Below, piece after piece: positions 886-39,993 of a stretch of DNA of 64,000 nt. The position numbers and the translations under genes were made by a program. The number at the start of each line of letters is the position of its first letter. The stretch's first letter is position 1. This DNA comes from Candidatus Pacearchaeota archaeon (GTDB taxonomy: Archaea > Nanobdellota > Nanobdellia > Pacearchaeales > GW2011-AR1), in the NCBI GenBank assembly GCA_017609285.1, contig JAFCEE010000003.1:11529-75528 (forward strand). The letters run 5' to 3'. The notes under the pieces were generated by a model. That model saw only the letters and a list, made by a program, of their open reading frames with translations, did no database searches and was not told where the DNA came from.

Positions 886-2409
886 CTATACCCAACCCAA
901 AACCATTGCTATACCTAAAAAAAACATTATAATTCCTGCGACTAAATGTAAGTATTTAATGTTTTTTTCTTTCCATCCAGAAACATCTTCAACTTTTGCA
1001 AAACCAGCATATACAATTAAAGTTATTCCCAACATTGGCAAAACAAAAATTATATTGTAGAGGAGTAGAGGAGGTATTGTTTTAATTAATTCTAAAGATG
1101 ATAATATTCCAGAAGCAATGACATAAGGTCCTATAGTACAAGGCAAAAGAAAGACAGTTACAAAAATACCGACAAAAAAAGCTCCTCTCGGACTAGTAAC
1201 TCCAGAAATTAATTTTTTAACTTTTGGCCTCATGCTTAAAGGCATTTCTGTTGCAAATCCACCAGGTTTATATCTTACAAAATCCCTAATATTGAGAGAA
1301 CCTAAAATAATGGCAGCAAAACCTAGAATTTTATAAAGCCACAATCTTATAGAAGTTAAAGCTTGAACAAGCTGAAAAAATCTGATAATTACTAAACCAT
1401 AAATTAAATACATAATAAATACTGATGTTGTAAAAGCAAGTCCTGCTAATAAAATGTTTCTTTTCTTTTTTGGATTATACGTTAAAATTGCAATTAACAT
1501 TAAGGTTAAAACAGCAAGTGCACAAGGATTTACAGCATCTACAGCAGCCAAAGAAACAATTTTCGCAAGTGTGAGTGATTCTTTCATCCCAACTTGACAT
1601 TCTGCAATTTCAGTATAAGCAATACACTGGTAATTTGTTTCCTTACCACACTTATAATTTGTTCTTGTTTTTGTACCATTTATACACTCACTCCATTCAC
1701 TAGGATTTGGACAAGAAGGACATTTGCTAGTTTCAATTGATTTTCCATTCCACTGAAATAGCCAGCCTTTTAGTTGGATAGCGTTCTCAAAATAAATATT
1801 TTTTCCAGATAATGCTACTGGCGCTGGCTCTACAACTTTATAAGGAATTTCATCAATAGTATAGGAAAGATTAGTGGAAGTTAATAAATTTTTTAACAAC
1901 TCATTATTATTTCCGCCATTTGTTTTAATTAAAATCCTTTCATTTGACCATATCTTTGGTTTTCCGGGTAAGGTTGTAAGGTCAAGATTTTCAAATTTTT
2001 CAGAGGAATCAATTAACGGACAGGGATTTTTGTTTAGTTTAGTTATCTTATCTAAATTATTTAAAATCGGACGGTCGCCAATAATATAATTTTCTTTTCC
2101 TAAAATTACTAAGGGAATTCCAAAACCTGAGCCATATTTTTTATCATATTCTAAAAGCAAAGGTGCATTTTCTTGCTGCTGATAAATTTCATATTCTATT
2201 ATGACTAATTTAGGATTTTCTTTTAACAAATTTATTAATACGGGGTCTGTTTTTGCGCAATGAGGACAGCCAACTCCTGTAAAATAAACAATACAGGTTT
2301 TTTCTTCTGTAGTCTGGGCTGTTGAAAAAGACATGGAGAAAAATAAAAAAGTTACAACTGCTACTAAAATTAACATTCCCCTCAATAACACTCTTTTTTT
2401 ATTTTCCAT
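886..2409 (-). CDS. Membrane thiol:disulfide oxidoreductase: secreted thioredoxin-like domain plus Cys-rich linker plus CcdA/DsbD-type transmembrane domain
   Basis: N-terminal signal/TM, then FTGVGCPHCAKTDP (CxxC thioredoxin fold). The middle is Cys-rich (CPSCPNPSEWSECINGT...). The C-terminal multi-TM region contains AAVDAVNPCALAVL, typical of the CcdA/DsbD family. Confidence 0.7.
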   Translation of the reverse strand: MENKKRVLLRGMLILVAVVTFLFFSMSFSTAQTTEEKTCIVYFTGVGCPHCAKTDPVLINLLKENPKLVIIEYEIYQQQENAPLLLEYDKKYGSGFGIPLVILGKENYIIGDRPILNNLDKITKLNKNPCPLIDSSEKFENLDLTTLPGKPKIWSNERILIKTNGGNNNELLKNLLTSTNLSYTIDEIPYKVVEPAPVALSGKNIYFENAIQLKGWLFQWNGKSIETSKCPSCPNPSEWSECINGTKTRTNYKCGKETNYQCIAYTEIAECQVGMKESLTLAKIVSLAAVDAVNPCALAVLTLMLIAILTYNPKKKRNILLAGLAFTTSVFIMYLIYGLVIIRFFQLVQALTSIRLWLYKILGFAAIILGSLNIRDFVRYKPGGFATEMPLSMRPKVKKLISGVTSPRGAFFVGIFVTVFLLPCTIGPYVIASGILSSLELIKTIPPLLLYNIIFVLPMLGITLIVYAGFAKVEDVSGWKEKNIKYLHLVAGIIMFFLGIAMVLGWV

Positions 2410-2465
2410 ATTTTTATAGTGATGAAACCCTTTATAAATCTTAGTTTCAAAAAATGAAACCTTTC

Positions 2466-2942
2466 TTATTTTACAAAAAGATCTTTAATTTCCTCATTGA
2501 GAATAAGTTTATTTGTCATTCCGCTTTTTTCTTTTTTAATCAGTCCTTTTTCTTCCATCCTAGCAACTATTCTCGATATCTTTACTTTATTAGAACCAAG
2601 AATTTTTGTAAGTTTGCTTTGACTTAATTCTCCTTTATTTTCAATTAAACAAATTAGTACTTTTTTATCATCTTCATCTAAAATATCTAAAAATTTAAGC
2701 AAATTAGCTTCTATTTCTTTTTTTTCTTTTATAAAACTATTGCTTAGAATATAGTAAGTTGCTGAACCTACAAATAAGCCCAAAGAGGATATGGAGACAA
2801 TTATAACCCATAAAGGTAATTTGCATCCGCAAGTTGAAGAAAAATTTTCTGTCGTATAAAAGACAGTAAAAGATATTACAAAAATAAAAAAAGTTATGAT
2901 TCCAAAAATTAAGATGGCTGGTCTAAATTTGCTTTTTTCCAT
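2466..2942 (-). CDS. Membrane-anchored winged-helix (MarR/ArsR-like) regulator
   Basis: Two N-terminal hydrophobic helices, then a wHTH-like segment LSQSKLTKILGSNKVKISRIVARMEEKGLIKKEK. Confidence 0.5.
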   Translation of the reverse strand: MEKSKFRPAILIFGIITFFIFVISFTVFYTTENFSSTCGCKLPLWVIIVSISSLGLFVGSATYYILSNSFIKEKKEIEANLLKFLDILDEDDKKVLICLIENKGELSQSKLTKILGSNKVKISRIVARMEEKGLIKKEKSGMTNKLILNEEIKDLFVK

Positions 2943-2996
2943 TTTTCCTCTCTTTATAAAAATAGAGATTTGTTTAAAAATCTTGCTGAGAATTCT

Positions 2997-3899
2997 TTAC
3001 TTCATATTTTTTAGTTTTTCCAAACTTTTCTCTAAAATTTTTTCAAATAGAGGTTCAAATTTTTTATTATATTCTACAACTGGTTTTAAATTAACTAAAG
3101 CATTTACAAATTCTTTATTATAAGGAATTTTTCCGAGTAAAGGAATTTTATATTTTTTGGCAAAGATTTCAATTTTTTTACTGAACTCTTTATTAATATC
3201 ATATTTGTTTATAACAACCCCATATGGTATGCGGAAGTGCTCAACTGTTCTCAAAGCTCTTTTTAAATCTGAAAGGCCAGAAGGTGTTGGTTCTGTTATG
3301 GCAAGAATAAAATCAGAACCTTGTATAGAAGCAATAACAGGACAGCCGACTCCTGCTGCTGAATCAACTAAAATAATTTCAGCTTTTTGTTTTTTTCCTT
3401 CTTTCATAACTTTTTCTTTTATTAATGAAACTACCTTCCCACTTCCTGTTGCCCCTATTTTTAATTGTCCAGAAATTAAATTAAAATTATATTTTGTTTT
3501 GGCTGAACCAATTTTTCCGTTTTTAACTTTTATTAAGTTAACAGCTTTGGCAGGACAAACTAATTGACAAGAGCCACAACCTTCACATAACATTGAATTA
3601 AAAATAGGTTTATTCTTCTTTTTATCCCAAGATATAGCTGAGAAATTACAAACATCTAAACATTTTTTACATCCAATACATTTTTTTTCGTCAAGAACAG
3701 CTTTCTCGTTTGTTTCAACTTCTTTCCATGAAGAGAAATCTTTTTCTTTTAATCCTAAAGCCAAACCTAAATTTGGAGCATCGGCATCACAATCCGCTAC
3801 AATAATTTTTCTTTTCCTTGCTAACAAAACAGCTAAACTTGCTGTTAATGTAGTTTTTCCTGTACCTCCTTTTCCACTTAATATTGTTAAAGTTTTCAT
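2997..3899 (-). CDS. MinD/ParA-family P-loop ATPase with inserted 2x[4Fe-4S] ferredoxin domain (COG1149-type)
   Basis: Deviant Walker A SGKGGTGKTT. Cluster motifs CIGCKKCLDVC and CEGCGSCQLVCP. It overlaps the upstream paralog by 4 nt. Confidence 0.85.
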   Translation of the reverse strand: MKTLTILSGKGGTGKTTLTASLAVLLARKRKIIVADCDADAPNLGLALGLKEKDFSSWKEVETNEKAVLDEKKCIGCKKCLDVCNFSAISWDKKKNKPIFNSMLCEGCGSCQLVCPAKAVNLIKVKNGKIGSAKTKYNFNLISGQLKIGATGSGKVVSLIKEKVMKEGKKQKAEIILVDSAAGVGCPVIASIQGSDFILAITEPTPSGLSDLKRALRTVEHFRIPYGVVINKYDINKEFSKKIEIFAKKYKIPLLGKIPYNKEFVNALVNLKPVVEYNKKFEPLFEKILEKSLEKLKNMK

Positions 3900-12584: not shown

Positions 12585-12680
12585 ACAGATTTTTGAAAAT
12601 ATGTAGATTTTTAAATTTATTGATGATACTTTTAAAAAACCTTTTTACTTTTAGTAAACAGAAAAAAGAGAAAAGAGAAG

Positions 12681-13631
12681 ATGAGAATTAGTGTTATAAT
12701 AACTGTTATGTTAATTGCTCTTTTAGCTGGCTTGAGCTATTTTCTCTACTTTGCTATTTCAAATTTTGTGGCAGAACCAATACCCTTTATACAAAACTTT
12801 TCCCCAGAATTACAAGTAAAAAATCAGACAAGTTATAAAGGAGAACTACAATTTTATCCAAACATGAGATTTGCTAAAAAAACTCTTATATACAATATTG
12901 AGCCTTCTTGTAATGAGAAAAAGCAGACAAGGATGAGAAGAGCTTTTTTAAAACTAGAAAATGAAACAGGACTTTTGAAATTTTACAGAAACATATATAA
13001 AGAAAAAGCTGATATATTAGTGAGTTGCCAGGAATCAGAGTTAGCAGAGAAAATTCCTGGGGAGTATTATATAGCAGGGGAGGGAGGTCCGACAGCAATA
13101 ATAAATACTTCTCTTTTTTATGTAATTGAAAAAGGAAAAGTCCTTCTTTTGTATAAGGAATCTGCTTGTAATAATTACAATGTTGAGTTGCACGAACTTT
13201 TACATGTTTTTGGATTTAAGCATTCTGAAAATAAAAAAAGTGTTATGTATAATACTACTTTTTGCAATCAAGTATTGACTCAAGACATAATAGAAGAGTT
13301 GAAAAGATTGTATAGTATTGAGGAACTTCCAGATTTGTATATAGAAAATGTTTCCGCTATTAAAGAAGGAATCTACTTGAGCTTTGATGTTCAGGTTAGG
13401 AATCAAGGTTTAAGTGACGCTGAAAATGTAACTCTTGAATTATATTCTAACGGTAAGAAGATAGATGAATTTGATTTGGGAAAAATAAATTATGGTGAGG
13501 GAAAGATTTTGGAAGTAAAGGACAAGAGGTTACATTCAAGAAAAGATGATAGTATTAAGTTTGTTTTAGTTAGTGGTAAAGAGCTGGATAAAGAAAATAA
13601 TATTATTGAGCTTTTCTTAGCTTCTAGTTAA
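12681..13631 (+). CDS. Membrane-anchored metzincin-type zinc metalloprotease with a C-terminal beta-sandwich (CARDB-like) domain
   Basis: N-terminal TM. HELLHVFGFKHSENKKSVMY gives HExxHxxGxxH plus a Met-turn. The C-terminal ~90 aa (LYIENVSAIKEGIYLSFDVQVRNQGLSDAENVTLELY) resembles CARDB. Confidence 0.75.
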   Translation: MRISVIITVMLIALLAGLSYFLYFAISNFVAEPIPFIQNFSPELQVKNQTSYKGELQFYPNMRFAKKTLIYNIEPSCNEKKQTRMRRAFLKLENETGLLKFYRNIYKEKADILVSCQESELAEKIPGEYYIAGEGGPTAIINTSLFYVIEKGKVLLLYKESACNNYNVELHELLHVFGFKHSENKKSVMYNTTFCNQVLTQDIIEELKRLYSIEELPDLYIENVSAIKEGIYLSFDVQVRNQGLSDAENVTLELYSNGKKIDEFDLGKINYGEGKILEVKDKRLHSRKDDSIKFVLVSGKELDKENNIIELFLASS

Positions 13632-26892: not shown

Positions 26893-28716
26893 TTGGACAT
26901 GACTGAAGAAACTAATAAAAAGAAAGAAAATTTGATTGGGGAAATTAAAGATATTAGTTTGGATTATCAACAAAAAAAGAAGTTTCCTACAGAAATTTCA
27001 GAGAAAGCAAAACAAGAGATGGAGAAGACAAGGAAAGAACTGGAGAGCTTTAAGAAAAAAATTCTGAAGAAGTATCCTTTTATTTTTTCTATAGGAATAT
27101 TGCCCCCACAAGCTTGTGAAAAAATAGAAGAGGAAGAAAATGTTCCTCCTGAAGAAGCGAAGAAAAAACCTATTCATCTAATTGTTTTAATACCTGAAGA
27201 ACAATTTAAGAATTTTAACAAGATTAAACTTGGTTTAATCAAGGAAACTGAAAATATAAAACCAAAAATTTGGATACATTTGAAAACTCCTGTGGATATA
27301 TGGAATTATTGTTTAGATGGGAAATATGGTATTATGTCTGCCATAGGAATGTCTTTTCCTTTATATGATAAAGGTTTTCTTGGAAGTTTGAGAGTTGCTG
27401 AAATTCATAAATCTTTAGTATTAAGAAAATTTGAGAGATATGTAGTTAGTTATGTTATAGCTGGTTCTTTGGTTAGAGGCGATGCTACAAAAACAAGTGA
27501 TGTAGATGTTTATTGTATTATAGATGATACTGATGTTAAAAGAATGCCACGTCTTGAGTTAAAAGAGAAGTTAAGAAGTATTATCTATAGTTATATTATT
27601 GAGGCGGGTGAGTTAGCAGGAGTAAAAAATAAGTTGAATGTTCAGGTATATATTTTGACAGAATTTTGGGAAAGTGTGAAAGATGCGCATCCTGTTATTT
27701 TCACTTTTATCAGAGATGGCGTTCCTTTATATGATAAGGGAACTTTTATGCCTTGGAAATTACTTCTAAAGATGGGTAAATTAAAGCCGAGTCCTGAAGC
27801 AATAGACATGTTTATGTCTATGGGAGATAAAGTAAGTAAAAGAGTTAAAAGGACTTTAACTGATTTAGTAATAGGAGATATTTATTGGGGTATTATTACA
27901 CCAAGCCAGGCTTTATTAATGTTGTATGGTCTGCCTCCCCCTACTGCAAAAGAAACACCAAAAATATTTAGAGAAACTTTTGTTGAAAAGGAAAAATTGT
28001 TAGAGAAAAAATATGCTGATATTTTAGAGAAAACAGTTAAAACTTACAAAGATTTTGAGCATGAGAAAATTAAAGATGGCGATATTAAAGGAGAAAATGT
28101 AGATAAGTTTTTGGAACAGGCAGAAGATTTTCTAAAGAGGCTAAAAGAGTTGAGAAAGCAAATTGAAAAACATAGTCAGGAAAAGACTATAGAAGATATT
28201 TACAAAAATGTTTTCGATTTACTAAAAGCTATTTTCGGAAAAAAATCTGAACAACAATTATTAGAAGAATTTGAAAAAAAATTTATTAAAAAAGGTTTTT
28301 TTCCTTTCCCTTTTTTAAGGATTTTGAAAAATATAGTTAAGACTAAAAAAGATTTTAAGAAGGGTAAGATAAAAAGAGAAGACATAGAAAATGTAAGGAA
28401 AAATGCAAATGCACTGATTAATCATTTAATAGAGTATAATCAGAGATGTGAATTAATCAGTTTACAAAAAGGCAAATTAAGATTGAAAACAAAAACTAAA
28501 ACTTATGAGTTAGTTTTAACTGATAATGTTGCTTTTTTAATTGATAAAGGTAAAGTTAGTAAGATTAATGTTAAAAGCAAGAAGTTAGAAGATAGTAGCG
28601 TTGAGGAATTAACAGAAGCTTTAGATAAGCAGAAAAAAAAGCAAGAAGTGAAAGTAGATGAGGATTTGTTTGTTATGCTAAAGAAAAAAATAGGAAAGTT
28701 TGATATTTTACTCTGA
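26893..28716 (+). CDS. Large Pol-beta-superfamily nucleotidyltransferase with HEPN-like helical domain and long Lys/Glu-rich C-terminal region
   Basis: NTase motif IAGSLVRGDATKTSDVDVYCIIDD. The following segment PWKLLLKMGKLKPSPEAI...ALLMLYGLPPPTAKE is homologous to the 285-aa protein at 34633-35490. Confidence 0.65.
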   Translation: MDMTEETNKKKENLIGEIKDISLDYQQKKKFPTEISEKAKQEMEKTRKELESFKKKILKKYPFIFSIGILPPQACEKIEEEENVPPEEAKKKPIHLIVLIPEEQFKNFNKIKLGLIKETENIKPKIWIHLKTPVDIWNYCLDGKYGIMSAIGMSFPLYDKGFLGSLRVAEIHKSLVLRKFERYVVSYVIAGSLVRGDATKTSDVDVYCIIDDTDVKRMPRLELKEKLRSIIYSYIIEAGELAGVKNKLNVQVYILTEFWESVKDAHPVIFTFIRDGVPLYDKGTFMPWKLLLKMGKLKPSPEAIDMFMSMGDKVSKRVKRTLTDLVIGDIYWGIITPSQALLMLYGLPPPTAKETPKIFRETFVEKEKLLEKKYADILEKTVKTYKDFEHEKIKDGDIKGENVDKFLEQAEDFLKRLKELRKQIEKHSQEKTIEDIYKNVFDLLKAIFGKKSEQQLLEEFEKKFIKKGFFPFPFLRILKNIVKTKKDFKKGKIKREDIENVRKNANALINHLIEYNQRCELISLQKGKLRLKTKTKTYELVLTDNVAFLIDKGKVSKINVKSKKLEDSSVEELTEALDKQKKKQEVKVDEDLFVMLKKKIGKFDILL

Positions 28717-34064: not shown

Positions 34065-34628
34065 ATGAGACAAGAAGAAAGACCACAATATGAAGAAATA
34101 GTAGAAAGAATGAGGGGTAATTTAGAAGATAATGAAGCTTTTTATTACTCTGCTTTGATAAAGGGTGGAGAATATGGTAAAGAAGGCCAAAGAGATGGTT
34201 TGTATGCATCATTATGGGGATTAAGAGAAAAAGTAGGTTTAGAAGGAATCTTATCAACTCTAGAAGCACAAGGAGAAGCAAGTATAAGCGGAGGTAATGG
34301 TTTAAATGCAGAATACAGTTTAGCTCGTGTGATTGAGAATAATGCTGCTAATTTTTTGGAAAGTTTAAATGAATTAAAACCAAGAGATATAATTCAATAT
34401 ATAAAGAATAGAATAAATGTCGAGATTGAAGAAAGATATATTGACAAACAATTAAAAGAGTTGACTGAAAGTAATGAAGAAGGAGAAAAAACTTATGGAA
34501 GATATTTGATTAGACAAGTAGCTAATGCTGTAATGGCAAAAGTGACACCCCTTGCATATGAAGAAAGAGCAAGGAGAGAAAATAGGGCATATAATATGTA
34601 TTTAGAGAGAAATACAGAAAAACCTTAA
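34065..34628 (+). CDS. Hypothetical cytoplasmic protein, 187 aa
   Basis: ORF track; no motif recognised. It shares its promoter element with the lytic transglycosylase gene at 62703. Confidence 0.5.
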   Translation: MRQEERPQYEEIVERMRGNLEDNEAFYYSALIKGGEYGKEGQRDGLYASLWGLREKVGLEGILSTLEAQGEASISGGNGLNAEYSLARVIENNAANFLESLNELKPRDIIQYIKNRINVEIEERYIDKQLKELTESNEEGEKTYGRYLIRQVANAVMAKVTPLAYEERARRENRAYNMYLERNTEKP

Positions 34629-34632
34629 TTTT

Positions 34633-35490
34633 TTATTTTTCTATTAAAATTTTAACTAATCTTGTCATTTCCTGAACAAATTTTTCTGTTTTAGCTTGCC
34701 AGTCATCTATTTCCACGCCCTTTAAATCTGTAATTTCTCCATGAACAATTTTTCTATGCAAAACATACAAGTCGCGATAAAAGATAACATATTTCATCTT
34801 TAAGTTGCGTGTATCTACAAAAATTTCTTTTAGCAAGACAGGGACATGTTCTGGACTTGGGGGGGATTGTTTAGCAGCCATTAAAGCTGCGTGGGCTGCA
34901 TCAACCATTGCCCAGTATAAACCTTCAATAGCATTCAATTCAGAAGCTTTACTTCTTGCTATATGGGTGGGTGTCCGTTGTAATGCCGCATATATTGCTT
35001 CTGGTGTACTTTTTATTCTACCCTGCTGTAATAAAATTTTTAATGGCGAGAAAAAACCGCCAAAATCAATTAAAGGCTCGCCAAATCTTACTATGTTTAT
35101 TACTACTGGGTCGCCCCGCAACAAATCTTGCCACCATGTAGTTAGTTTGACTGAATTGATGTGTAAGTCTTTTTTATAAGGATTTTTTCTTATTAATTTT
35201 CCTAATTCTTCCCTATACCATGCTATTAATTCTTGGTCCCATTGTATTGATGCGTCATCTATAATAATGATTATGTCTATATCTGATCCGGCAATAGCAG
35301 AACCCTTTGTTTGACTTCCAAATAGAACTATACTCTTTATCATTTTATCAAATTTTTGATAAACTTTTGTAGCAAAGTCTAAAGCAATATCTTTTTCATT
35401 TGCTAGTTTTAAGGTTGGTGTATCTTTAATAGAAACTTTTTTTCTTTTAGTTTTCTTTTTGATTTTCCTTTTCACACTTTTCTTTTTCAT
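34633..35490 (-). CDS. Pol-beta-superfamily nucleotidyltransferase fused to a HEPN-like helical domain
   Basis: FGSQTKGSAIAGSDIDIIIIIDD (G-S...DxD). C-terminus LKILLQQGRIKSTPEAI...AHAALMAAKQSPPSPEH is homologous to 26893-28716. Confidence 0.7.
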   Translation of the reverse strand: MKKKSVKRKIKKKTKRKKVSIKDTPTLKLANEKDIALDFATKVYQKFDKMIKSIVLFGSQTKGSAIAGSDIDIIIIIDDASIQWDQELIAWYREELGKLIRKNPYKKDLHINSVKLTTWWQDLLRGDPVVINIVRFGEPLIDFGGFFSPLKILLQQGRIKSTPEAIYAALQRTPTHIARSKASELNAIEGLYWAMVDAAHAALMAAKQSPPSPEHVPVLLKEIFVDTRNLKMKYVIFYRDLYVLHRKIVHGEITDLKGVEIDDWQAKTEKFVQEMTRLVKILIEK

Positions 35491-35538
35491 TTTACCTCTT
35501 TTTTTTCATAAGGAAATTTAGGTTTTTAAATATTAACT

Positions 35539-37368
35539 TTATGCTGTTGGTGTTCCTCCAAATCTTGTTTGTTTTCCTGGAACTTGACCGCCTAATTCAG
35601 CAGGTAAAGTAGAAAAGCCAGCCCCATACATTGAAAAGTGTTGTTCTGGCAACATTGTTCCATAACCAGCGAAGTAGGAGCCATAACTAGAAACTATCTG
35701 ATTCCAGTAGGGTTGCATCATAGCAGAATATAATGGGGATCCCATTGCTTCTAAAATATACTGTGTTGGAGAAACTTTAAAATGCTGCACAAAACCTCCA
35801 GCTTCAACAATTTTCTTTCCTTTAAAACCAGCTTTTTCTAATTCTTTTAAAATATCTTTAATAGGAACATTTCCCATTCCTGGTGGAAGATGTGTATCTG
35901 CATAACCAAAATTATCAGTCAAATGGACATGTTTTACAAGTTTAGCTATTTTCTCTGTTTCTTTTTTTATTTCTTCTGGTTTATAACCCGCTTTCCTTAA
36001 CATATTGATATGTCCTACATCCCATGTAACTCCTATTAATTTGTTAGCTGCATCTTTTGCCTCACTTCTAGACATACCTTCTTTGACAGCTTTTTCTTCA
36101 AATTTTTTTCTTGCTCTTTCAACAAGCTCTTTTAATTCATCACTTCTTGAAAAAGCCATACCAGGATATAAATTTTCTATGCTTATTATTGGTGCTTTAT
36201 CTTTATATTTCTTATAAGCATTAAATGCTGTGTTTGCAAGAGTTTTTGAAGCTTCTCTTACTGCGAAATCTTCTACTTTTACATATATATTTGGTTTCAC
36301 ACTTTGCATTTCTCTTATAAGGTCCTGCAATGCTTCTGAAGTTATAGCGAGGTTTTTTTTTCTAATTTTCTCTTCAAAACTTTTAGCTACTTCAGAAAGA
36401 TGTGCTCTTTCTTTTTCATTTCCATATTTGTATGCTTTATTGAATAGATTATTCAATACAAGACGAGAATTTTCTAAGTATTCATGAGCATTATATACTT
36501 GATTTAATGCTGCTTTCTCTGCATTTGTTAATTGGTTCATTTTTATCTTTCCTGTAACAACTTTGTCCCATATTTTTTTGACTGCAGGATAGTATTTTTC
36601 AAGTATCTCATCACCCCTATTCTTATAAAATAATACCTGCGTTAAATTATTATGCCATTCACTCTGATTCATAATTTTCAACTCTTCTTCAGGTGTCCTA
36701 AATTCTGGTATTATTTTTTTCCCTGCTTTTGTTTTCACGCCAACTTCTACTGGATAAAATCTCTCTTCTCTTTTTATAGGAATCAGCTGGCCTGTTTCTT
36801 GATTGATTGCTATTATTTTATTTTCTTCTAATTGTTTTAATTCTTCTTTAGTTGGTTCTCTTCCATATTCTTCTATGAATTGTTTTTTATATCTCTCAAC
36901 CAACTTTTTTGATGGCTTACTATACTCTGTTCCAGGAATGCTAGAAGCATGTATTGTTATAGGCATATTTCCCTTAGGGTTTAACTCATGACTCCTTTCT
37001 ACAATACTTTGTATTTGTTTCTCTGCCGCTTCTCTATTTGCTTCACTCCAACCTTCTCTTGTAAATCCTGCAGGATCTATTAGTGGGGCGTGTACAGTAG
37101 TTTCAGTGCCAGTTAATTTTGTTAACCTTTCAATTTCTTTAAAATGTTGTTTTGGTATGGTATCAAAAACTTCAGGGGATAAGGGCTGTAATTCAACGAC
37201 TTTTCCTCCTTGGCTCAATAAATTAGTGACTTCTTGAAGTTGATTTGCTGTTTGTATTGATGTTGGAGCACCTATCTCGCCAGCAGAAATTCTATAACCA
37301 GTAAAGAGTTCGCCATATTCTGGTTCTAATGGATAAGGAGTACCAGAATAAAAAAATTCATAAGCCAT
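35539..37368 (-). CDS. Xylose-isomerase-like (AP endonuclease 2 / sugar-phosphate isomerase) TIM-barrel protein with a ~250-aa helical insertion and an aromatic/Gly-rich tail
   Basis: Barrel landmarks TTVHAPLIDPAG, MPITIHASS, IISIENLYPG, VTWDVGHINM, VKHVHLTDNFGYADTHLPPGMGNVPIKDILKELEKAGFKGKKIVEAG. Insertion at about aa 150-400. Tail YGSYFAGYGTMLPEQHFSMYGAGFSTLP. Confidence 0.6.
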   Translation of the reverse strand: MAYEFFYSGTPYPLEPEYGELFTGYRISAGEIGAPTSIQTANQLQEVTNLLSQGGKVVELQPLSPEVFDTIPKQHFKEIERLTKLTGTETTVHAPLIDPAGFTREGWSEANREAAEKQIQSIVERSHELNPKGNMPITIHASSIPGTEYSKPSKKLVERYKKQFIEEYGREPTKEELKQLEENKIIAINQETGQLIPIKREERFYPVEVGVKTKAGKKIIPEFRTPEEELKIMNQSEWHNNLTQVLFYKNRGDEILEKYYPAVKKIWDKVVTGKIKMNQLTNAEKAALNQVYNAHEYLENSRLVLNNLFNKAYKYGNEKERAHLSEVAKSFEEKIRKKNLAITSEALQDLIREMQSVKPNIYVKVEDFAVREASKTLANTAFNAYKKYKDKAPIISIENLYPGMAFSRSDELKELVERARKKFEEKAVKEGMSRSEAKDAANKLIGVTWDVGHINMLRKAGYKPEEIKKETEKIAKLVKHVHLTDNFGYADTHLPPGMGNVPIKDILKELEKAGFKGKKIVEAGGFVQHFKVSPTQYILEAMGSPLYSAMMQPYWNQIVSSYGSYFAGYGTMLPEQHFSMYGAGFSTLPAELGGQVPGKQTRFGGTPTA

Positions 37369-37423
37369 TTTGTTTACCTCTTTTTATGTAAGAATATGGG
37401 GGTTTTTAAGTTTAAAATTCTTT

Positions 37424-38008
37424 CTACTTTACTCCTCTTCTTTTCTCTTTATATTCCCAAGGGAGTTTCAACTCTCTGTTAATCTCTTCTGTCCCAACGA
37501 CTGTATCAGATACTCTCCTTTCTTGTGTCTCTCTGGCTTGCCTTAATTCAGGCCATTCTTCTATTGCTGTTACAGGTCTTTTCATTTCATTTATATCTTC
37601 TCCCCTAACTATAATTTTTCTTTCTTCCATTTCCCTTCTTACTGGAAAGGCCTCTTTTTCATAACTGTATTCTGGCATATTGTAAACAGAAGATTCATAT
37701 AATTCTCTTGTTTCAGTTTCACCTAAGGGAGTTGTAGGTGTATTTTCTAATGTTTCTTCTATTGTTTCTTCTGTTCCTGTTTCCACAGTAGGTTGCAAAA
37801 CAGGAGCAGTTGATGTAGGACTTGAAACAGAAGCAGAAAAATTATTGAATCCTTCTCGAACTTCTTCCACAAATTCAACCTCTCCTTCTAAACTTTTTTC
37901 TTCGCTTTCAGTTTTTCCTCCTTCTTCTTTTTCTGTTTCTTCTTCATCCTCTTTAACTTCCTTAAAAGGAACATTTACTCTCTCACCAATAATTTTTTCT
38001 TCTGACAT
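37424..38008 (-). CDS. Acidic, probably disordered protein, 194 aa, function unknown
   Basis: ORF track. E/T/S-rich with no motif recognised. It sits between the 508-aa and 609-aa genes with short gaps (30 and 55 nt). Confidence 0.5.
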   Translation of the reverse strand: MSEEKIIGERVNVPFKEVKEDEEETEKEEGGKTESEEKSLEGEVEFVEEVREGFNNFSASVSSPTSTAPVLQPTVETGTEETIEETLENTPTTPLGETETRELYESSVYNMPEYSYEKEAFPVRREMEERKIIVRGEDINEMKRPVTAIEEWPELRQARETQERRVSDTVVGTEEINRELKLPWEYKEKRRGVK

Positions 38009-38038
38009 ACTCAGTTATAGGGAAAGAGATATTTAAAC

Positions 38039-39565
38039 TTATTCAATAGGCGGGTGAGAAGCCATGCCATGGGCTTTTTTGTATATATCAAACAAGGTAA
38101 AGCAAGTGCTTATTGCAGAATTTTCTGCTGCTTTTCTAACTAATTTTTCTACATAATTATCTGGCTTTATTTCAGTTATCTTTTCCTTATCTTCTCCCTC
38201 TTTCTTCTTTTCTTCGCTTTTTTCTTTTTTTTCTGTCAATCCAATTAAAGCAGCAAAAGGATTTACATCTTCCCCACTTTTTTTCTTTTCTTCAGCTTCT
38301 TCTTTTTCTCTTTCCTCCTCTTCTTTTAAAAAATAGTTTATATCTTCTTGCAACTCATCGAGTGATTCTTCTGTTGTGCCAGAAACAAGTTTTAAAGCGT
38401 CAGCTAAATCACTTTCATCCAGCTTTTGCTCTAACATTTTTAGTTCATCGTCATTTAAAGCATAAGCTTTAAATGTTACTTCAGCTCTACCACCAAAAAC
38501 ATAATGCTGCCCTACTTTTTGAGGTATTCCTCTAAAAAAGAAATCAACTAACACACAAGAATAATAATCTCTTTTTAATTTAACTTTTTTAAAAGATTCT
38601 GGTAATTCTTTATCTACAATTGCTTGTTCAAAATTCACCTGCTTTTTGCCCAGGAGAGTCAATTCAAGAAGAATAGTATTAAAAGCAGTAACCAAAGAAG
38701 GCTCTCTTCCTACTTCTTTTTGTTCTAATTGTGTGGCTGCTTTTAAATAAGGTTTTGCCCATCTGGAGTAAAGTTTTAAAGCATTTACCTGGCTTTTTAG
38801 ATAAGTTTTTTCAATTTCATATCTCTTTTTTAACTCTCTTTCACTTCTCTTTTTCCATTCAAAAAATTCAGCAAGTCTCGGCTTAAGAATTCTCTTTACT
38901 CTATCATTTAAATCCATCTTATCAACTTCTTCCACTGACTTAGCAACCATAAAAGCATCTCTTATGGTTACAAAATTTAAATCTTGAGCTAACATGTTAA
39001 TACTTCCCCTGCCTCTTTTTATATCAACATTATCCATCCAAATTTGTTTTAAAGCAAGCAAAGCAGATTCAGCTTTCTTTTTATCTTCAGAATGAGAATC
39101 TTTATAATGTTGCAACCTAATCTCGAATTCTTTTAAGTCATAAATTAGATTGATTATGCTTTTTATAACTGTATTTGCATTACCTAAAATTTTCATCGCT
39201 TCTTCTTGCATTCTTGTTGCTTTTCCCATTAGTTCTGAGAAATGTCCTGAGCCAGGAGAGGATGTAAAGTTATCAACTATTTTTTCTACTTTTCCACTAA
39301 ATAAGTCGTTCATTAAGTCAAGAATCCAAAAGTATACTGGCTCAAGAGTTTCAGAAGTTGATTGATAAATTAGTTTATGCTCTTGTGCTGAAGTGGGCTT
39401 TAAATTATACTTTTTCCCCATGTCTTTTAATGCCTGCCAGAAATCTTGTTTTAAAGCTTTTTTAAACCCTGATTTATCTGCAGGTTGATAGTCTTCCTTT
39501 TTTGTGGTATATTTACCTGGATTTATACCTGCAATTACCTTGCTTACATCATCTATAGTTGGCAT
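38039..39565 (-). CDS. Large alpha-helical protein, 508 aa, function unknown (first gene of a three-gene operon)
   Basis: ORF track. Long heptad-like helical stretches, an acidic EEEEREKEEAEEKKK linker, no signal peptide, no P-loop. I cannot place it in any family. Confidence 0.55.
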   Translation of the reverse strand: MPTIDDVSKVIAGINPGKYTTKKEDYQPADKSGFKKALKQDFWQALKDMGKKYNLKPTSAQEHKLIYQSTSETLEPVYFWILDLMNDLFSGKVEKIVDNFTSSPGSGHFSELMGKATRMQEEAMKILGNANTVIKSIINLIYDLKEFEIRLQHYKDSHSEDKKKAESALLALKQIWMDNVDIKRGRGSINMLAQDLNFVTIRDAFMVAKSVEEVDKMDLNDRVKRILKPRLAEFFEWKKRSERELKKRYEIEKTYLKSQVNALKLYSRWAKPYLKAATQLEQKEVGREPSLVTAFNTILLELTLLGKKQVNFEQAIVDKELPESFKKVKLKRDYYSCVLVDFFFRGIPQKVGQHYVFGGRAEVTFKAYALNDDELKMLEQKLDESDLADALKLVSGTTEESLDELQEDINYFLKEEEEREKEEAEEKKKSGEDVNPFAALIGLTEKKEKSEEKKKEGEDKEKITEIKPDNYVEKLVRKAAENSAISTCFTLFDIYKKAHGMASHPPIE

Positions 39566-39651
39566 TTTTCCTCTTTTGCTTTTATAATTATAATCAGTTT
39601 ATATTTAAAAATCTTCGCAAGATTTAAATATTCTTCCTTCTTGAGAGAAAT

Positions 39652-39993
39652 ATGTGGCCATTTAAGAAAAAGAAAGTTTTGGATTTAACTGCGAAGGAAG
39701 TAAAAGTGCCAAAACCTAGTTTAAGTAATGGAGGAGAATATAAAGATTTAACTTCTCCTGTTTCTTCTTCTGCTAATTCAGAATCGGCTTTAGGTTTTCT
39801 TGGTAATTTGGCAAATTCTGTTCAGCCACCAGAAACTTCAACATTGCCCACAGATGAGATGTCTTTAAAACACTTAAAAGTGAGGATAGAAGATATTGAG
39901 TACAAAATAGATAGTTTGAGAAGCAGAATTGATAAGATTTTAGATAGACTTGATCTTGCTGAGAAAAAAATTGATAGAGCAAATAGGATTTAA
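39652..39993 (+). CDS. Small protein with disordered N-terminal half and C-terminal coiled coil, divergent from the 508-aa gene
   Basis: LKHLKVRIEDIEYKIDSLRSRIDKILDRLDLAEKKIDRANRI. The divergent intergenic region contains the palindrome AATCTT-CGC-AAGATT. Confidence 0.45.
   Translation: MWPFKKKKVLDLTAKEVKVPKPSLSNGGEYKDLTSPVSSSANSESALGFLGNLANSVQPPETSTLPTDEMSLKHLKVRIEDIEYKIDSLRSRIDKILDRLDLAEKKIDRANRI

What the first reader, a model, noticed from the sequence alone, without database searches (positions are those of the whole stretch)
35539..39993. Unrecognisable three-gene operon: 508-aa helical protein, 194-aa acidic protein and 609-aa TIM-barrel enzyme with a giant insertion
Three co-directional genes with short gaps sit on the minus strand, with a divergent 113-aa coiled-coil gene across an 86-bp region. 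That region contains the palindrome AATCTT-CGC-AAGATT (39609-39623). Only the last gene has recognisable chemistry: a xylose-isomerase-like/AP-endonuclease-2 TIM barrel with metal-ligand landmarks (HAP, IHAS, ENL, DVGH, HLTDN...D.H..PG.G, E). It is interrupted by about 250 aa of helical insertion and ends in a Tyr/Gly/Phe-rich low-complexity tail. I cannot assign the 508-aa protein to any family; it has long helices, an acidic linker, and no signal peptide or P-loop. A dedicated enzyme combined with a large helical scaffold and a disordered acidic partner is a plausible novel cytoplasmic system (structural, remodelling or modification), but its function is open.
Basis: partly seen in the sequence, partly recalled or inferred. 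Interest (0 to 1): 0.6.

Follow-up and report, generated by a model that had tools for sequence, protein, structure and literature searches.

The report
Core unknown enzyme module of Nanoarchaeota
Nearly every genome of a whole phylum of tiny symbiotic archaea keeps this five-gene block, which pairs two recognisable enzymes (a three-metal phosphoesterase-like barrel and a nucleotide-adding enzyme) with a 508-residue protein whose predicted fold matches nothing known; relatives of that orphan protein also sit in mobile DNA elements of bacteria.

Summary
It is one copy of a module kept across the phylum Nanoarchaeota/Nanobdellota. The module is larger than reported: a divergent 113-aa gene, then the 508-aa, 194-aa and 609-aa genes, then a fourth co-directional gene, a 285-aa nucleotidyltransferase.

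- **508-aa protein.** No Pfam, NCBIfam, PHROG, PADLOC or PDB match. A confident AlphaFold model (pLDDT 83.8) has no Foldseek match. The family was found in 297 of 301 sampled genomes of the phylum, almost always as a single match.
- **609-aa protein.** A xylose-isomerase-like TIM barrel, closest to MJ1311 (PDB 3WQO). The nine positions I equate with the endonuclease IV metal ligands are conserved phylum-wide. It carries a roughly 250-aa insertion on the catalytic face. Its Tyr/Gly/Phe tail is strongly conserved, not junk.
- **Nucleotidyltransferase.** It keeps its catalytic GS...DxD motif.
- **New here.** The 508-aa family has a bacterial branch nested inside the archaeal tree. It sits in integrative mobile elements beside SSB and primase genes, without the enzyme partners.

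Function remains unknown. My best guess, about 0.35, is processing of phosphodiester or nucleic-acid ends. The palindrome is no more than chance gives; it is where two back-to-back promoters meet.

The parts
39652..39993 (+). A4: divergent 113-aa protein. Conserved basic N-terminus (MWPFKKKKVLDLT), a Ser-rich linker with SALGFLGNLA, and a C-terminal coiled-coil helix of about 45 residues.
   Evidence: ORF. Positional orthologues of 35-59% identity in L001-L003. My HMM finds it beside the 508-aa gene in L006-L009, L013 and L015. Only weak coiled-coil hits in Pfam and PHROGs. No TM segment.
39566..39651 (.). 86-bp divergent promoter region with two opposed TATA-like boxes (TTTAAAT and TTTTTAAA). 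They flank the 7-bp-arm palindrome AAATCTT-CGC-AAGATTT at 39609-39625. A GAGG Shine-Dalgarno-like motif precedes the 508-aa gene.
   Evidence: Sequence. Closest relative L001 has a longer palindrome, AAATCTAGCGATATCGCTAGATTT, at the same place. More distant relatives keep only the two TATA-like boxes. The frequency of such palindromes equals chance.
38039..39565 (-). A1: 508-aa protein of an uncharacterised family with a predicted alpha/beta fold that has no known match. Long beta-strands at 61-73, 93-102, 298-309, 334-351 and 354-371. Helices at 107-157 and 221-280 with a conserved helical tip at 162-216. Acidic disordered stretch at 430-470 and a conserved C-terminal helix at 471-498.
   Evidence: No Pfam, NCBIfam, PHROG, PADLOC or PDB hit. 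AlphaFold pLDDT 83.8. Foldseek against PDB and BFVD gives no hit at E<=1e-3. More than 2880 homologues and 618 representatives at 50% identity. Found in 297 of 301 genomes of the phylum. Bacterial mobile-element branch.
37424..38008 (-). A3: 194-aa acidic protein (pI 4.5), probably disordered, fast-evolving. Conserved motifs are YESSVYNMPEY and a C-terminal EEWxEL...LPxExKxK.
   Evidence: ORF. Only 2 hits in the word-based search. Positional orthologues align at 23-46% identity. A gene of 160-250 aa sits in the same slot in distant families. Charge figures.
35539..37368 (-). A2: 609-aa xylose-isomerase-like (AP_endonuc_2) TIM barrel of the MJ1311/endonuclease IV type. Candidate metal ligands are H93, H140, E398, D450, H453, H482, D491, H493 and E522. 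A beta/helical insertion of about 250 aa (about 146-392) follows strand 3. The N-terminal (1-30) and C-terminal (546-609) aromatic/Gly tails are conserved and were not modelled.
   Evidence: PF01261 at E 1.8e-14. 3WQO by sequence at E 1.7e-9 and 1.5e-11 and by fold at E 1.9e-6, TM 0.77. AlphaFold pLDDT 81.7. Alignment A2. Ligand columns conserved in 12 of 14 sequences, including distant orders and Nanopusillus.
34633..35490 (-). A5: 285-aa Pol-beta-type nucleotidyltransferase with a helical C-terminal domain (kanamycin-NTase / MNT-HEPN-like layout). The catalytic motif G58-S59...D70-x-D72...D78-D79 is intact.
   Evidence: PF01909 at E 2.7e-8 and PF18765 at 3.8e-7. 65-83% identity to positional orthologues. 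Invariant motif across two paralogous subfamilies. Weak PDB profile hits to KNTase (E 0.0046) and the HEPN-like AF0298 (E 0.037). Adjacent to A2 in L001-L003, L025, L030, L032, L033 and L052; in L031 only a 113-aa A5-matching fragment lies about 0.7 kb downstream of A2.

Best explanation
The region is one copy of a five-gene module that is inherited vertically and kept, nearly always as a single copy, throughout the phylum Nanoarchaeota/Nanobdellota. The genes are A4 (divergent, 113 aa), then A1 (508 aa), A3 (194 aa), A2 (609 aa) and A5 (285 aa).

Shown:
- A2 is a metal-dependent TIM-barrel enzyme of the MJ1311/endonuclease IV type. The nine positions I equate with the endonuclease IV ligands are under purifying selection. 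A large cap-like insertion emerges from the catalytic face.
- A5 is a Pol-beta-fold nucleotidyltransferase with its catalytic motif intact.
- A1 is a soluble protein of an uncharacterised family whose confident predicted fold has no match among solved structures.
- All five products lack membrane segments.

Inferred:
- The products work together as a cytoplasmic enzyme assembly. The conserved but unmodelled aromatic/Gly tails of A2 and the short motifs of the disordered A3 would dock onto A1 and/or A5.
- A2 hydrolyses a phosphoester or phosphodiester bond, and A5 adds a nucleotide.
- The most likely substrate class is nucleic-acid ends, with A2 cleaning 3' ends and A5 adding nucleotides.
- A1 is the substrate-handling subunit, possibly DNA-handling. 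It has been captured on its own by bacterial integrative elements, where it sits with SSB, DnaG-type primase and RadC genes.

Confidence that this is a conserved functional module is about 0.9. Confidence that it processes nucleic-acid ends or phosphodiesters is about 0.35.
For: **Conservation.** A1 has more than 2880 homologues and 618 representatives at 50% identity. It was found in 297 of 301 genomes and 222 of 225 genera of the phylum, almost always as one match. A2 was found in 207 of 301 genomes at E<=1e-20. That is an undercount: G024 counted as absent, but my own HMM finds A2 next to A1 there.

**Synteny.** The full order A4|A1-A3-A2-A5 holds in L001-L003, and L052 has the same order with an extra 66-aa gene (its 143-aa divergent gene was not tested for homology to A4). 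A1, a small gene, A2 and A5 are in order in distant families L025, L030, L032 and L033; L031 has A1, A2 and only a partial A5 hit about 0.7 kb downstream. A1-A2 are adjacent in cultured Nanopusillus acidilobi. The own genome holds one copy of each.

**Enzymes.**
- PF01261.
- Fold match to 3WQO, ketose 3-epimerases and endonuclease IV.
- Ligand positions conserved.
- MJ1311 aligns over HAP, H(P/A)G, D..GH, H.H..D, D.H..G.G and E.
- The first two His align with those of the genome's own Nfo-like protein.
- MJ1311 was listed as the predicted Endo IV homologue of M. jannaschii (PMC2770678).
- The NTase motif is invariant.

**A1 acts without A2 and A5.** Bacterial homologues match at hhalign probability 100, E 2.7e-46, and at 1e-75 to 1e-81 with my HMM. 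They lie in integrative elements next to SSB, primase and RadC. No A2, A3, A4 or A5 homologue is nearby.

**Not defence, not viral.** No PADLOC hit apart from generic MNT matches to A5. No phage, plasmid or IMG/VR match.
Against: - No direct evidence for any substrate.
- The A2 insertion is not consistently basic. Its net charge ranges from -10 to +10 among homologues.
- From my recollection of the 3WQO paper (not retrievable here), MJ1311 lacks the DNA-binding groove of endonuclease IV.
- The best Foldseek hits after MJ1311 are sugar 3-epimerases.
- The genome and its relatives already have a canonical-size Nfo-like protein. N. acidilobi has a separate 'Endonuclease IV', Nps_01285.
- KNTase/MNT-type transferases usually modify small molecules or proteins, not nucleic-acid ends.
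- Physical interaction among the products is inferred only from synteny.
- Each gene has its own TATA-like box, so co-transcription is unproven.
- The SSB/primase neighbourhood of bacterial A1 homologues comes from essentially one element family. Two other bacterial contexts (L050, L053) lack it.
Confidence: 0.35

Rival explanations
1. Small-molecule metabolism. A2 is a sugar or sugar-phosphate isomerase/epimerase, or a phosphodiesterase on a small metabolite or lipid head group, as in CbiR. A5 nucleotidylylates that metabolite. A1 and A3 are lineage-specific regulatory or substrate-carrier subunits, for example for remodelling compounds scavenged from the host.
For: After MJ1311, the top Foldseek hits are D-psicose and D-allulose 3-epimerases. 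NCBIfam gives sub-threshold hits to fructoselysine 3-epimerase (9e-7) and the cobamide phosphodiesterase CbiR (1.8e-4). KNTase-like enzymes act on small molecules. The insertion carries no consistent positive charge.
Against: [quoted passage not shown] A universal sugar enzyme would therefore be odd. All five extra His/Asp ligand positions typical of endonuclease IV, beyond the E-D-H-E set that I recall as the epimerase metal site, are conserved. The bacterial A1 homologues sit among DNA-metabolism genes.
Confidence: 0.2
2. Structural or membrane-associated assembly. A1 polymerises into a cytoskeletal, cage or remodelling structure. A4 tethers it to the membrane through its basic N-terminus. 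A2 is recruited through its conserved tails.
For: A1 has very long helices and long beta-strands. A4 has a conserved basic or amphipathic N-terminus and a coiled coil. The A2 tails are conserved but unmodelled in the monomer. Conservation is extreme.
Against: Neither Nps_03000 (A1) nor Nps_03005 (A2) was detected in the N. acidilobi proteome, which listed about 200 proteins including FtsZ and histones. There is no fold match to ESCRT-III/PspA, SPFH, tubulin/actin or capsid folds. The enzyme active sites are strictly kept. Bacterial mobile elements keep A1 alone.
Confidence: 0.15
3. A protein-nucleotidylylation switch. A5 (MNT-like) AMPylates tyrosines in the conserved Tyr-rich tails of A2 and/or in A3. 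The A2 phosphodiesterase removes the mark. The cycle regulates A1.
For: A5 has an MNT/KNTase-like layout. From my own knowledge, MNT antitoxins adenylylate Tyr of HEPN toxins. A Y-E-x3-Y-x2-P-x-Y-like motif occurs in both the A2 N-tail (YEFFYSGTPY) and A3 (YESSVYNMPEY). The tails are conserved and Tyr-rich in distant orders too.
Against: Purely inferential. The motif similarity is short and untested. No HEPN R-x4-6-H motif is seen in A5.
Confidence: 0.08
4. An anti-virus defence system or a domesticated mobile-element cassette in the archaeon.
For: A5 gives weak hits to PADLOC candidate MNT families. The A1 family occurs in bacterial mobile elements, and once beside a defence island (L050).
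Against: The module is near-universal, single-copy and syntenic across the phylum. A1-A4 have no PADLOC hit. There is no phage, plasmid or IMG/VR match. In the tree the bacterial clade is nested within archaeal sequences, so the direction is archaeon to element.
Confidence: 0.03

Closest known systems
MJ1311 of Methanocaldococcus jannaschii (PDB 3WQO, 'D-tagatose 3-epimerase-like protein'; arCOG01895 'AP endonuclease family enzyme')
   Same: Best sequence hit (E 1.7e-9 and 1.5e-11) and best fold hit (E 1.9e-6, TM 0.77) of A2. The same motifs are shared: HAP, H(P/A)G, D..GH, H.H..D, D.H..G.G and E. The N. acidilobi orthologue of A2 is annotated arCOG01895.
   Different: MJ1311 is 293 aa with no insertion and no conserved aromatic tails. 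Its own function is unknown. Only the C-terminal third aligns significantly by sequence.
Endonuclease IV (Nfo/Apn1), a trinuclear-Zn AP endonuclease and 3'-phosphodiesterase
   Same: Same TIM-barrel clan (PF01261). Fold hits to 3AAL, 8EDD and 1XP3 at E about 2e-3. All nine positions I equate with the ligands are conserved. The equivalence to E. coli H69, H109, E145, D179, H182, H216, D229, H231 and E261 rests on motif order and my own knowledge.
   Different: No TIGR00587 (nfo) hit for A2. A 250-aa insertion is present. The same genome encodes a separate canonical-size Nfo-like protein. DNA-binding loops were not assessed.
Ketose 3-epimerases (D-psicose, D-tagatose and D-allulose 3-epimerase)
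   Same: Fold matches at E 3e-5 to 1e-3 and target TM 0.63-0.70. The E-D-H-E metal set is shared (from my own knowledge of these enzymes).
   Different: A2 has five additional conserved His/Asp ligand positions, the insertion and the tails. Identity is 7-10%. A sugar pathway context is absent.
[quoted passage not shown]
   Same: A5 has the GS...DxD Pol-beta motif followed by a helical domain. Weak profile hits go to KNTase (E 0.0046), MNT antitoxins and the HEPN-like AF0298 (E 0.037).
   Different: Hits are weak and cover only the N-terminal 50 residues or so. No R-x4-6-H HEPN motif is present. A5 is a housekeeping-like gene at 65-83% identity, not a toxin-antitoxin pair.
Bacterial NHEJ end-processing (Ku with the LigD phosphoesterase and polymerase domains): a functional analogy only
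   Same: The combination is similar: a non-enzymatic handling protein, a 3'-phosphoesterase and a nucleotide-adding enzyme. This is inference from my own knowledge, not a test.
   Different: No sequence or fold relation of A1 to Ku. A2 and A5 belong to different superfamilies from LigD-PE and LigD-Pol. There is no linked ligase.

Membership tests
Xylose isomerase-like TIM barrel (Pfam PF01261, AP_endonuc_2), for A2 | Score above the Pfam gathering threshold and a TIM-barrel fold | tested here: met
   54.5 bits against a cut-off of 31.1, E 1.8e-14. AlphaFold model with pTM 0.80. Foldseek probability 1.00 to many family members.
Endonuclease IV (Nfo), for A2 | Nine metal-ligand residues of the trinuclear site | tested here: met
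   H93, H140, E398, D450, H453, H482, D491, H493 and E522 are invariant or nearly so in A2. They are kept in 12 of 14 sequences spanning distant orders. The equivalence to Nfo numbering rests on motif order, the MJ1311 alignments, not on a structural superposition.
Endonuclease IV (Nfo), for A2 | Match to the curated nfo model (TIGR00587) and a compact protein of about 280-300 aa | tested here: not met
   No TIGR00587 hit for A2 at E<=1. A2 is 609 aa with a 250-aa insertion. The genome's 260-aa paralogue does hit TIGR00587, at 4e-14, below the cut-off.
Endonuclease IV (Nfo), for A2 | DNA-binding groove and nucleotide-flipping loops; AP-endonuclease activity | not testable with these tools
   Model coordinates could not be inspected. 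There is no biochemical assay.
Ketose 3-epimerase family, for A2 | Fold plus the E-D-H-E single-metal site | tested here: met
   Foldseek E 3.4e-5 to 6e-4 to 7X7W, 7ERN, 8XIV and 3VNI. E398, D450, H482 and E522 are conserved. Substrate-binding residues and activity were not tested, so membership stays open.
Pol-beta-type nucleotidyltransferase (PF01909/PF18765), for A5 | The hG[GS] motif, then x9-13, then Dh[DE]h, plus a further carboxylate | tested here: met
   PF01909 at 34.5 bits against a cut-off of 21. G58, D70, D72, D78 and D79 are invariant, and S59 is conserved in at least 90%, across 11 sequences of two paralogous groups.
HEPN domain, for the C-terminal half of A5 | Four-helix HEPN fold with the R-x4-6-H motif | tested here: inconclusive
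   Only a weak profile hit to AF0298/UPF0332 (E 0.037). No R-x4-6-H motif appears in the conserved columns.
Any characterised protein family or fold, for A1 | Significant sequence or structure match | tested here: not met
   Pfam on 48 members finds no recurrent hit. NCBIfam, PHROGs and PADLOC give none. PDB searches by sequence and by profile give none below E 0.008. Foldseek against PDB gives a best E of 0.027 and TM of 0.2 or less. Foldseek against BFVD gives a best E of 2e-3 and TM 0.10. AlphaFold DB and HHpred were not available.
Known anti-phage defence systems (PADLOC) | Match of the components to defence models, with patchy distribution | tested here: not met
   No hit for A1-A4, and only generic MNT hits for A5. 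Found in 297 of 301 genomes.
Archaeal CCA-adding enzyme, considered for A5 | The lineage lacks the canonical enzyme, so that A5 could replace it | tested here: not met
   PF09249 is found in 17 of 21 relatives in frames of 410-453 aa.

The most novel reading that the evidence does not exclude
A1 founds a protein fold and family with no characterised relative. Together with A3, A4, a capped three-metal phosphoesterase (A2) and a nucleotidyltransferase (A5), it forms a phylum-defining, near-essential machine of Nanoarchaeota. The machine handles DNA or RNA ends, or another phosphodiester polymer, in a way not yet described. Its core subunit was exported from a Pacearchaeota-like archaeon into bacterial integrative elements, where it serves element replication or establishment beside SSB and primase.
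Probability: 0.25. Interest if true: 0.85.

Novelty: categorically new. Interest (0 to 1): 0.74.

Why it matters
Nanoarchaeota (Pace-, Woese- and Nanoarchaeales) have some of the smallest cellular genomes known. [quoted passage not shown] A single-copy gene found in about 99% of sampled genomes, with no detectable relative among characterised families or solved folds, is therefore probably part of essential biology that is still undescribed. It is fixed next to two enzymes with intact active sites.

The module can be tested directly. Cultured Nanopusillus acidilobi carries A1 (Nps_03000) and A2 (Nps_03005). The complete genome of Nanoarchaeota archaeon YN1 carries at least A1.

Relatives of A1 in bacterial integrative elements offer a second experimental route. 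They are also a rare case of an archaeal core gene moving into the bacterial mobile gene pool.

Tried and rejected
**Searches for a known relative of A1.**
- Pfam, NCBIfam, PHROG, PADLOC and PDB-sequence searches of A1, of 48 family members, of longer variants and of the bacterial homologues gave nothing recurrent.
- Foldseek of the A1 model against PDB and BFVD found only coiled-coil noise.

**Functional ideas tested and rejected.**
- A5 as a replacement for the CCA-adding enzyme. Rejected, because the canonical enzyme is present in 17 of 21 relatives.
- A2 as the lineage's only AP endonuclease. Rejected, because a separate Nfo-like 260-aa protein exists, and N. acidilobi has 'Endonuclease IV' Nps_01285.
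- A basic, nucleic-acid-binding character for the A2 insertion. Not found.
- A4 as SepF or an ESCRT-III/PspA-like protein because of its N-terminus. There is no family hit, and the C-terminal part is a single helix.
- Viral or plasmid origin of the window's A1. There is no match in phages, plasmids or IMG/VR.
- The palindrome as a special operator. Its frequency equals chance, and it coincides with two opposed BRE/TATA elements. Only the nearest relative keeps, and lengthens, it.

**Steps that gave nothing or failed.**
- Expression data: no public run holds the stretch.
- A motif scan of the own genome for Mre11/Rad50 was inconclusive.
- The search for related loci with alignments A6 and A1 failed for lack of conserved stretches.

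- The genome search closed and the fetch from genomes.
- Because of this I could not recount A2 and A5 at a laxer threshold.
- I could not look for A2 in the 0.5-Mb genome G059.
- I could not survey other archaeal phyla.

Full report
**1. What is in the window**

- 609 aa at 35539-37368(-)
- 194 aa at 37424-38008(-)
- 508 aa at 38039-39565(-)
- 113 aa at 39652-39993(+), across an 86-bp spacer

A fourth co-directional gene follows after 48 bp: 34633-35490(-), 285 aa. It carries a Pol-beta-type nucleotidyltransferase domain (PF01909, E 2.7e-8). The window is AT-rich, about 31% G+C. It is archaeal, since it holds an intron-bearing tRNA, and homologues are named Pacearchaeota or Nanoarchaeota. None of the five products has a membrane-spanning segment. 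I call the genes A4 (113 aa), A1 (508 aa), A3 (194 aa), A2 (609 aa) and A5 (285 aa).

**2. The module is conserved across a phylum**

- *Abundance of homologues.* A1 has more than 2880 homologues in the 90% clusters and 618 representatives at 50% identity. A2 has more than 1168.
- *Close relatives.* In three long metagenome contigs the order is identical: A4 divergent, then A1, a gene of about 180 aa, A2 and A5. The A5 orthologues are 65-83% identical. The A4 orthologues are 35-59% identical. The A3 orthologues are only 23-46% identical.
- *Phylum-wide sample.* In a sample of 301 genomes of the phylum, all of one class, A1 was found in 297. That is 222 of 225 genera, almost always as one match. 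A2 was found in 207 of 301 at E<=1e-20. This undercounts, because distant copies match only the C-terminal half of the barrel. One genome scored as 'absent', G024, has A2 next to A1 by my own HMM.
- *Distant families.* The order A1, small gene, A2, A5 recurs in L025, L030, L032 and L033. L031 has A1, the small gene and A2, with only a 113-aa A5-matching fragment about 0.7 kb downstream.
- *Own genome.* It has one copy of each gene, plus a 607-aa paralogue of A5.

**3. A1**

No library gives a hit:
- Pfam on the protein, on 48 members and on longer variants
- NCBIfam, PHROGs and PADLOC
- PDB by sequence or by profile

AlphaFold2 with a 48-sequence alignment gives a confident model, with mean pLDDT 83.8 and pTM 0.67. 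Its elements are:
- five long strands at 61-73, 93-102, 298-309, 334-351 and 354-371
- two very long helices at 107-157 and 221-280, bracketing a conserved helical tip at 162-216
- two further helices
- an acidic disordered stretch at 430-470
- a conserved C-terminal helix

Foldseek finds nothing at E<=1e-3 in the PDB (best 0.027, TM 0.2 or less) or in BFVD. AlphaFold DB was not available. The claim is therefore 'no match to solved or viral structures', not 'a proven new fold'.

**4. A2**

- *Family.* PF01261 at E 1.8e-14. The closest solved protein is MJ1311 (3WQO), by sequence and by fold (E 1.9e-6, target TM 0.77). Ketose 3-epimerases and endonuclease IV follow.
- *Candidate ligands.* H93, H140, E398, D450, H453, H482, D491, H493 and E522 are invariant or nearly so in 30 homologues. 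They are kept in 12 of 14 sequences that include distant orders and Nanopusillus. In order and motif context they correspond to the nine ligands of the endonuclease IV trinuclear site. That equivalence rests on my knowledge of the family. From my recollection of the 3WQO paper, which I could not retrieve, MJ1311 also keeps these nine residues but lacks a DNA groove. MJ1311 has been listed as the predicted Endo IV homologue of M. jannaschii (PMC2770678).
- *Insertion.* About 250 residues (about 146-392) start directly after the ligand H140 at the end of strand 3. The insertion must therefore sit on the catalytic face. It forms a small sheet plus a helical bundle and matches nothing. Its charge is not consistently positive.
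- *Tails.* The N-terminal 30 and C-terminal 64 residues or so are aromatic/Gly-rich. They are unmodelled (pLDDT below 50) yet strongly conserved. Order-specific versions exist in Woesearchaeota-type genomes, ending ...LWSxVPLE. Conserved but disordered tails suggest docking onto a partner. This is inference.
- *Not the only barrel.* A 260-aa Nfo-like protein lies elsewhere on the contig.

**5. A5, A3 and A4**

- A5 keeps G58-S59...D70-x-D72...D78-D79 across two paralogous subfamilies. It has the kanamycin-NTase/MNT-plus-helical-domain layout, supported only by weak PDB profile hits. It does not replace the CCA-adding enzyme, which 17 of 21 relatives possess.
- A3 is acidic and fast-evolving, with short conserved motifs.
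- A4 has a conserved basic N-terminus, a Ser-rich linker and one coiled-coil helix.
- In one distant family the gene divergent from A1 is an A5-like nucleotidyltransferase with an N-terminal coiled coil (L029). This is a possible but unproven link between A4-like helices and the transferase.

**6. Promoter region and palindrome**

- The palindrome has 7-bp arms at 39609-39625.
- It lies between two opposed TATA-like boxes. Each arm reads as the BRE-like stretch upstream of one box.
- The nearest relative has a longer palindrome at the same place. More distant relatives keep only the two boxes.
- Palindromes of this size are as frequent in the window (74) as in random sequence (about 78).
- Every intergenic gap in the block also has a TATA-like box and a GAGGT motif, so a single operon transcript is not established. 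No public RNA or DNA run holds the stretch.

**7. Link to cultured organisms and the literature**

- Genome G248 is Candidatus Nanopusillus acidilobi 7A (CP010514.1).
- By gene order (unknown, barrel, SecY, YidC, L34e), A1 is Nps_03000 ('Uncharacterized protein', no arCOG). [quoted passage not shown]
- Neither was detected in the published proteome, which listed about 200 proteins (PMC4935971, Supplementary Data 1-2). That argues weakly against an abundant structural role.
- The complete genome 'Nanoarchaeota archaeon YN1' also carries A1.
- A 0.5-Mb single-contig genome, G059, has a very divergent A1 next to a FEN-1-like gene.
[quoted passage not shown] I found no paper that describes this module.

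**8. New lead: a bacterial branch of the A1 family**

- *Homology.* Several representatives of 420-500 aa and 27-38% identity lack the helical tip but align over the rest. hhalign gives probability 100 and E 2.7e-46. My HMM gives 1e-75 to 1e-81. The residues that are invariant in the archaeal alignment A1, Y78, W237, W269 and P272, are kept in the hhalign alignment with P0376.
- *Hosts.* Three of these contigs (L047, L049, L050) have 53-58% G+C. One protein is named from a Planctomycetota genome.
- *Contexts.* Five contexts belong to one kind of integrative element (L047/L048, L049, L051, L054 and the P0326 contig). Across these contexts the element carries an integrase, a HerA/VirB4-like ATPase, a TraI-like helicase, DUF3150, DUF1257, DUF2997, a 500-aa AAA ATPase, SSB, a DnaG-type primase, RadC or SymE, and ThiF. 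The A1-like gene lies just before SSB-primase or just after the AAA ATPase, next to the integrase. Two other contexts differ. One is beside a defence island with an AlpA-like gene, L050. The other is L053.
- *No partners.* No A2, A3, A4 or A5 homologue is nearby.
- *Tree.* In an IQ-TREE (LG+C20 PMSF), these 13 sequences form one clade with support 100/99. They are the nine I labelled bacterial in the tree, P0349 and P0370 (shown bacterial by context only afterwards), and P0309 and P0335, whose origin I did not check. The clade is sister, at 100/100, to P0257 and P0265. It lies inside a 100/100 clade that also holds the window's protein.
- *Sister group.* P0257 sits in a canonical archaeal module beside ThrRS, GluRS, the barrel, the NTase and PEP synthase (L052).
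- *Direction of transfer.* Given vertical, single-copy inheritance in the archaea, the simplest reading is transfer from a Pacearchaeota-like archaeon into a bacterial mobile element.
- *Caveats.* Most tree tips have no taxon label, several branches are long, and the root is only a midpoint.

**9. Mechanism**

Shown:
- a conserved module
- an intact Endo IV/MJ1311-type metal site with a cap-like insertion
- an intact nucleotidyltransferase
- an orphan, soluble A1 that can function without the two enzymes

Inferred:
- a cytoplasmic assembly in which the A2 tails and the A3 motifs dock on partners
- A2 cleaves a phosphoester or phosphodiester bond, and A5 adds a nucleotide
- the substrate is most likely nucleic-acid ends, because of the Endo IV-type site, the pairing with a nucleotide-adding enzyme, and the DNA-metabolism company that A1 keeps in bacterial elements

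I put this specific reading at about 0.35. The rivals are small-molecule metabolism (0.2), a structural assembly (0.15), a Tyr-nucleotidylylation switch (0.08) and defence (0.03). The remainder is 'something else'.

**10. Relation to earlier notes of this scan**

Several earlier agents described the same module in other genomes and reached the same core conclusion: a conserved, unknown, MJ1311-like barrel plus an NTase. I re-derived these points independently. I add:
- the bacterial mobile-element branch
- the mapping to the Nanopusillus loci and proteome
- the promoter explanation of the palindrome

Their statement that A1 has 'no known relatives' holds for characterised families. It does not hold for distribution, because the family is not confined to Nanoarchaeota.

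**11. Limits**

- I therefore could not recount A2 and A5 at lax thresholds, look for A2 in G059, or survey other archaeal phyla.
- No multimer prediction, AlphaFold DB search or HHpred was available.

Noticed in passing
window 26893-28716 (+): A 607-aa ORF (TTG start) is a paralogue of the module's nucleotidyltransferase. My A5 HMM matches it at 2.3e-35, and NTP_transf_2 lies at residues 178-224. It has long extra N- and C-terminal regions. Similar longer paralogues lie next to rpl35ae in distant families (L029, L030).
   Followed up: partly
L037:591-1373 (own genome, contig C1 about 117.4-118.2 kb, outside the window): A canonical-size (260 aa) Nfo-like TIM barrel. It hits TIGR00587 at 4e-14, below the cut-off, and also CbiR at 3e-13. 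It is probably the lineage's ordinary AP endonuclease.
   Followed up: partly
L003 (JGI Ga0373630_0000048), 1289-3866 and 12586-13176: An otherwise archaeal module is flanked by bacterial-type genes (GGDEF, a full sigma-70 and an OMP beta-barrel) on a 257-kb contig. This is either a chimeric assembly or an unusual transfer.
   Followed up: no
L047-L049, L051, L054: A recurrent bacterial integrative element. It carries an integrase, a HerA/VirB4-like ATPase, a TraI-like helicase, SSB, a DnaG-type primase, RadC or SymE, DUF3150, DUF1257, DUF2997, a 500-aa AAA ATPase, ThiF (PRTRC-like) and the A1-like gene. Most of its genes have no known function.
   Followed up: partly
L029:8372-9460 (genome G018): Here the gene divergent from A1 is an A5-like nucleotidyltransferase of 362 aa. 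It has an N-terminal coiled coil that resembles the C-terminal helix of A4. This may be a fusion hint linking A4 and the transferase.
   Followed up: no
L021 (genome G059, 0.5 Mb, one contig): A very divergent A1 homologue of 497 aa (E 3.5e-16 to the profile) lies directly upstream of a FEN-1-like gene. By size and contig number the genome may be Nanoarchaeum equitans, but I could not confirm that, nor whether A2 exists there.
   Followed up: partly
window 34065-34628 (+): A 187-aa ORF convergent with the nucleotidyltransferase gene has no family hit (weak GlutR_dimer, E 0.0035). It is not part of the conserved block in L001-L003.
   Followed up: no
window 37369-37423, 35491-35538 and 38009-38038: Each short gap inside the block contains a TATA-like box (TTTAAA). 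Two of them also hold a GAGGT Shine-Dalgarno-like motif. The 194-aa gene has the geometry of a leaderless or near-leaderless transcript.
   Followed up: partly
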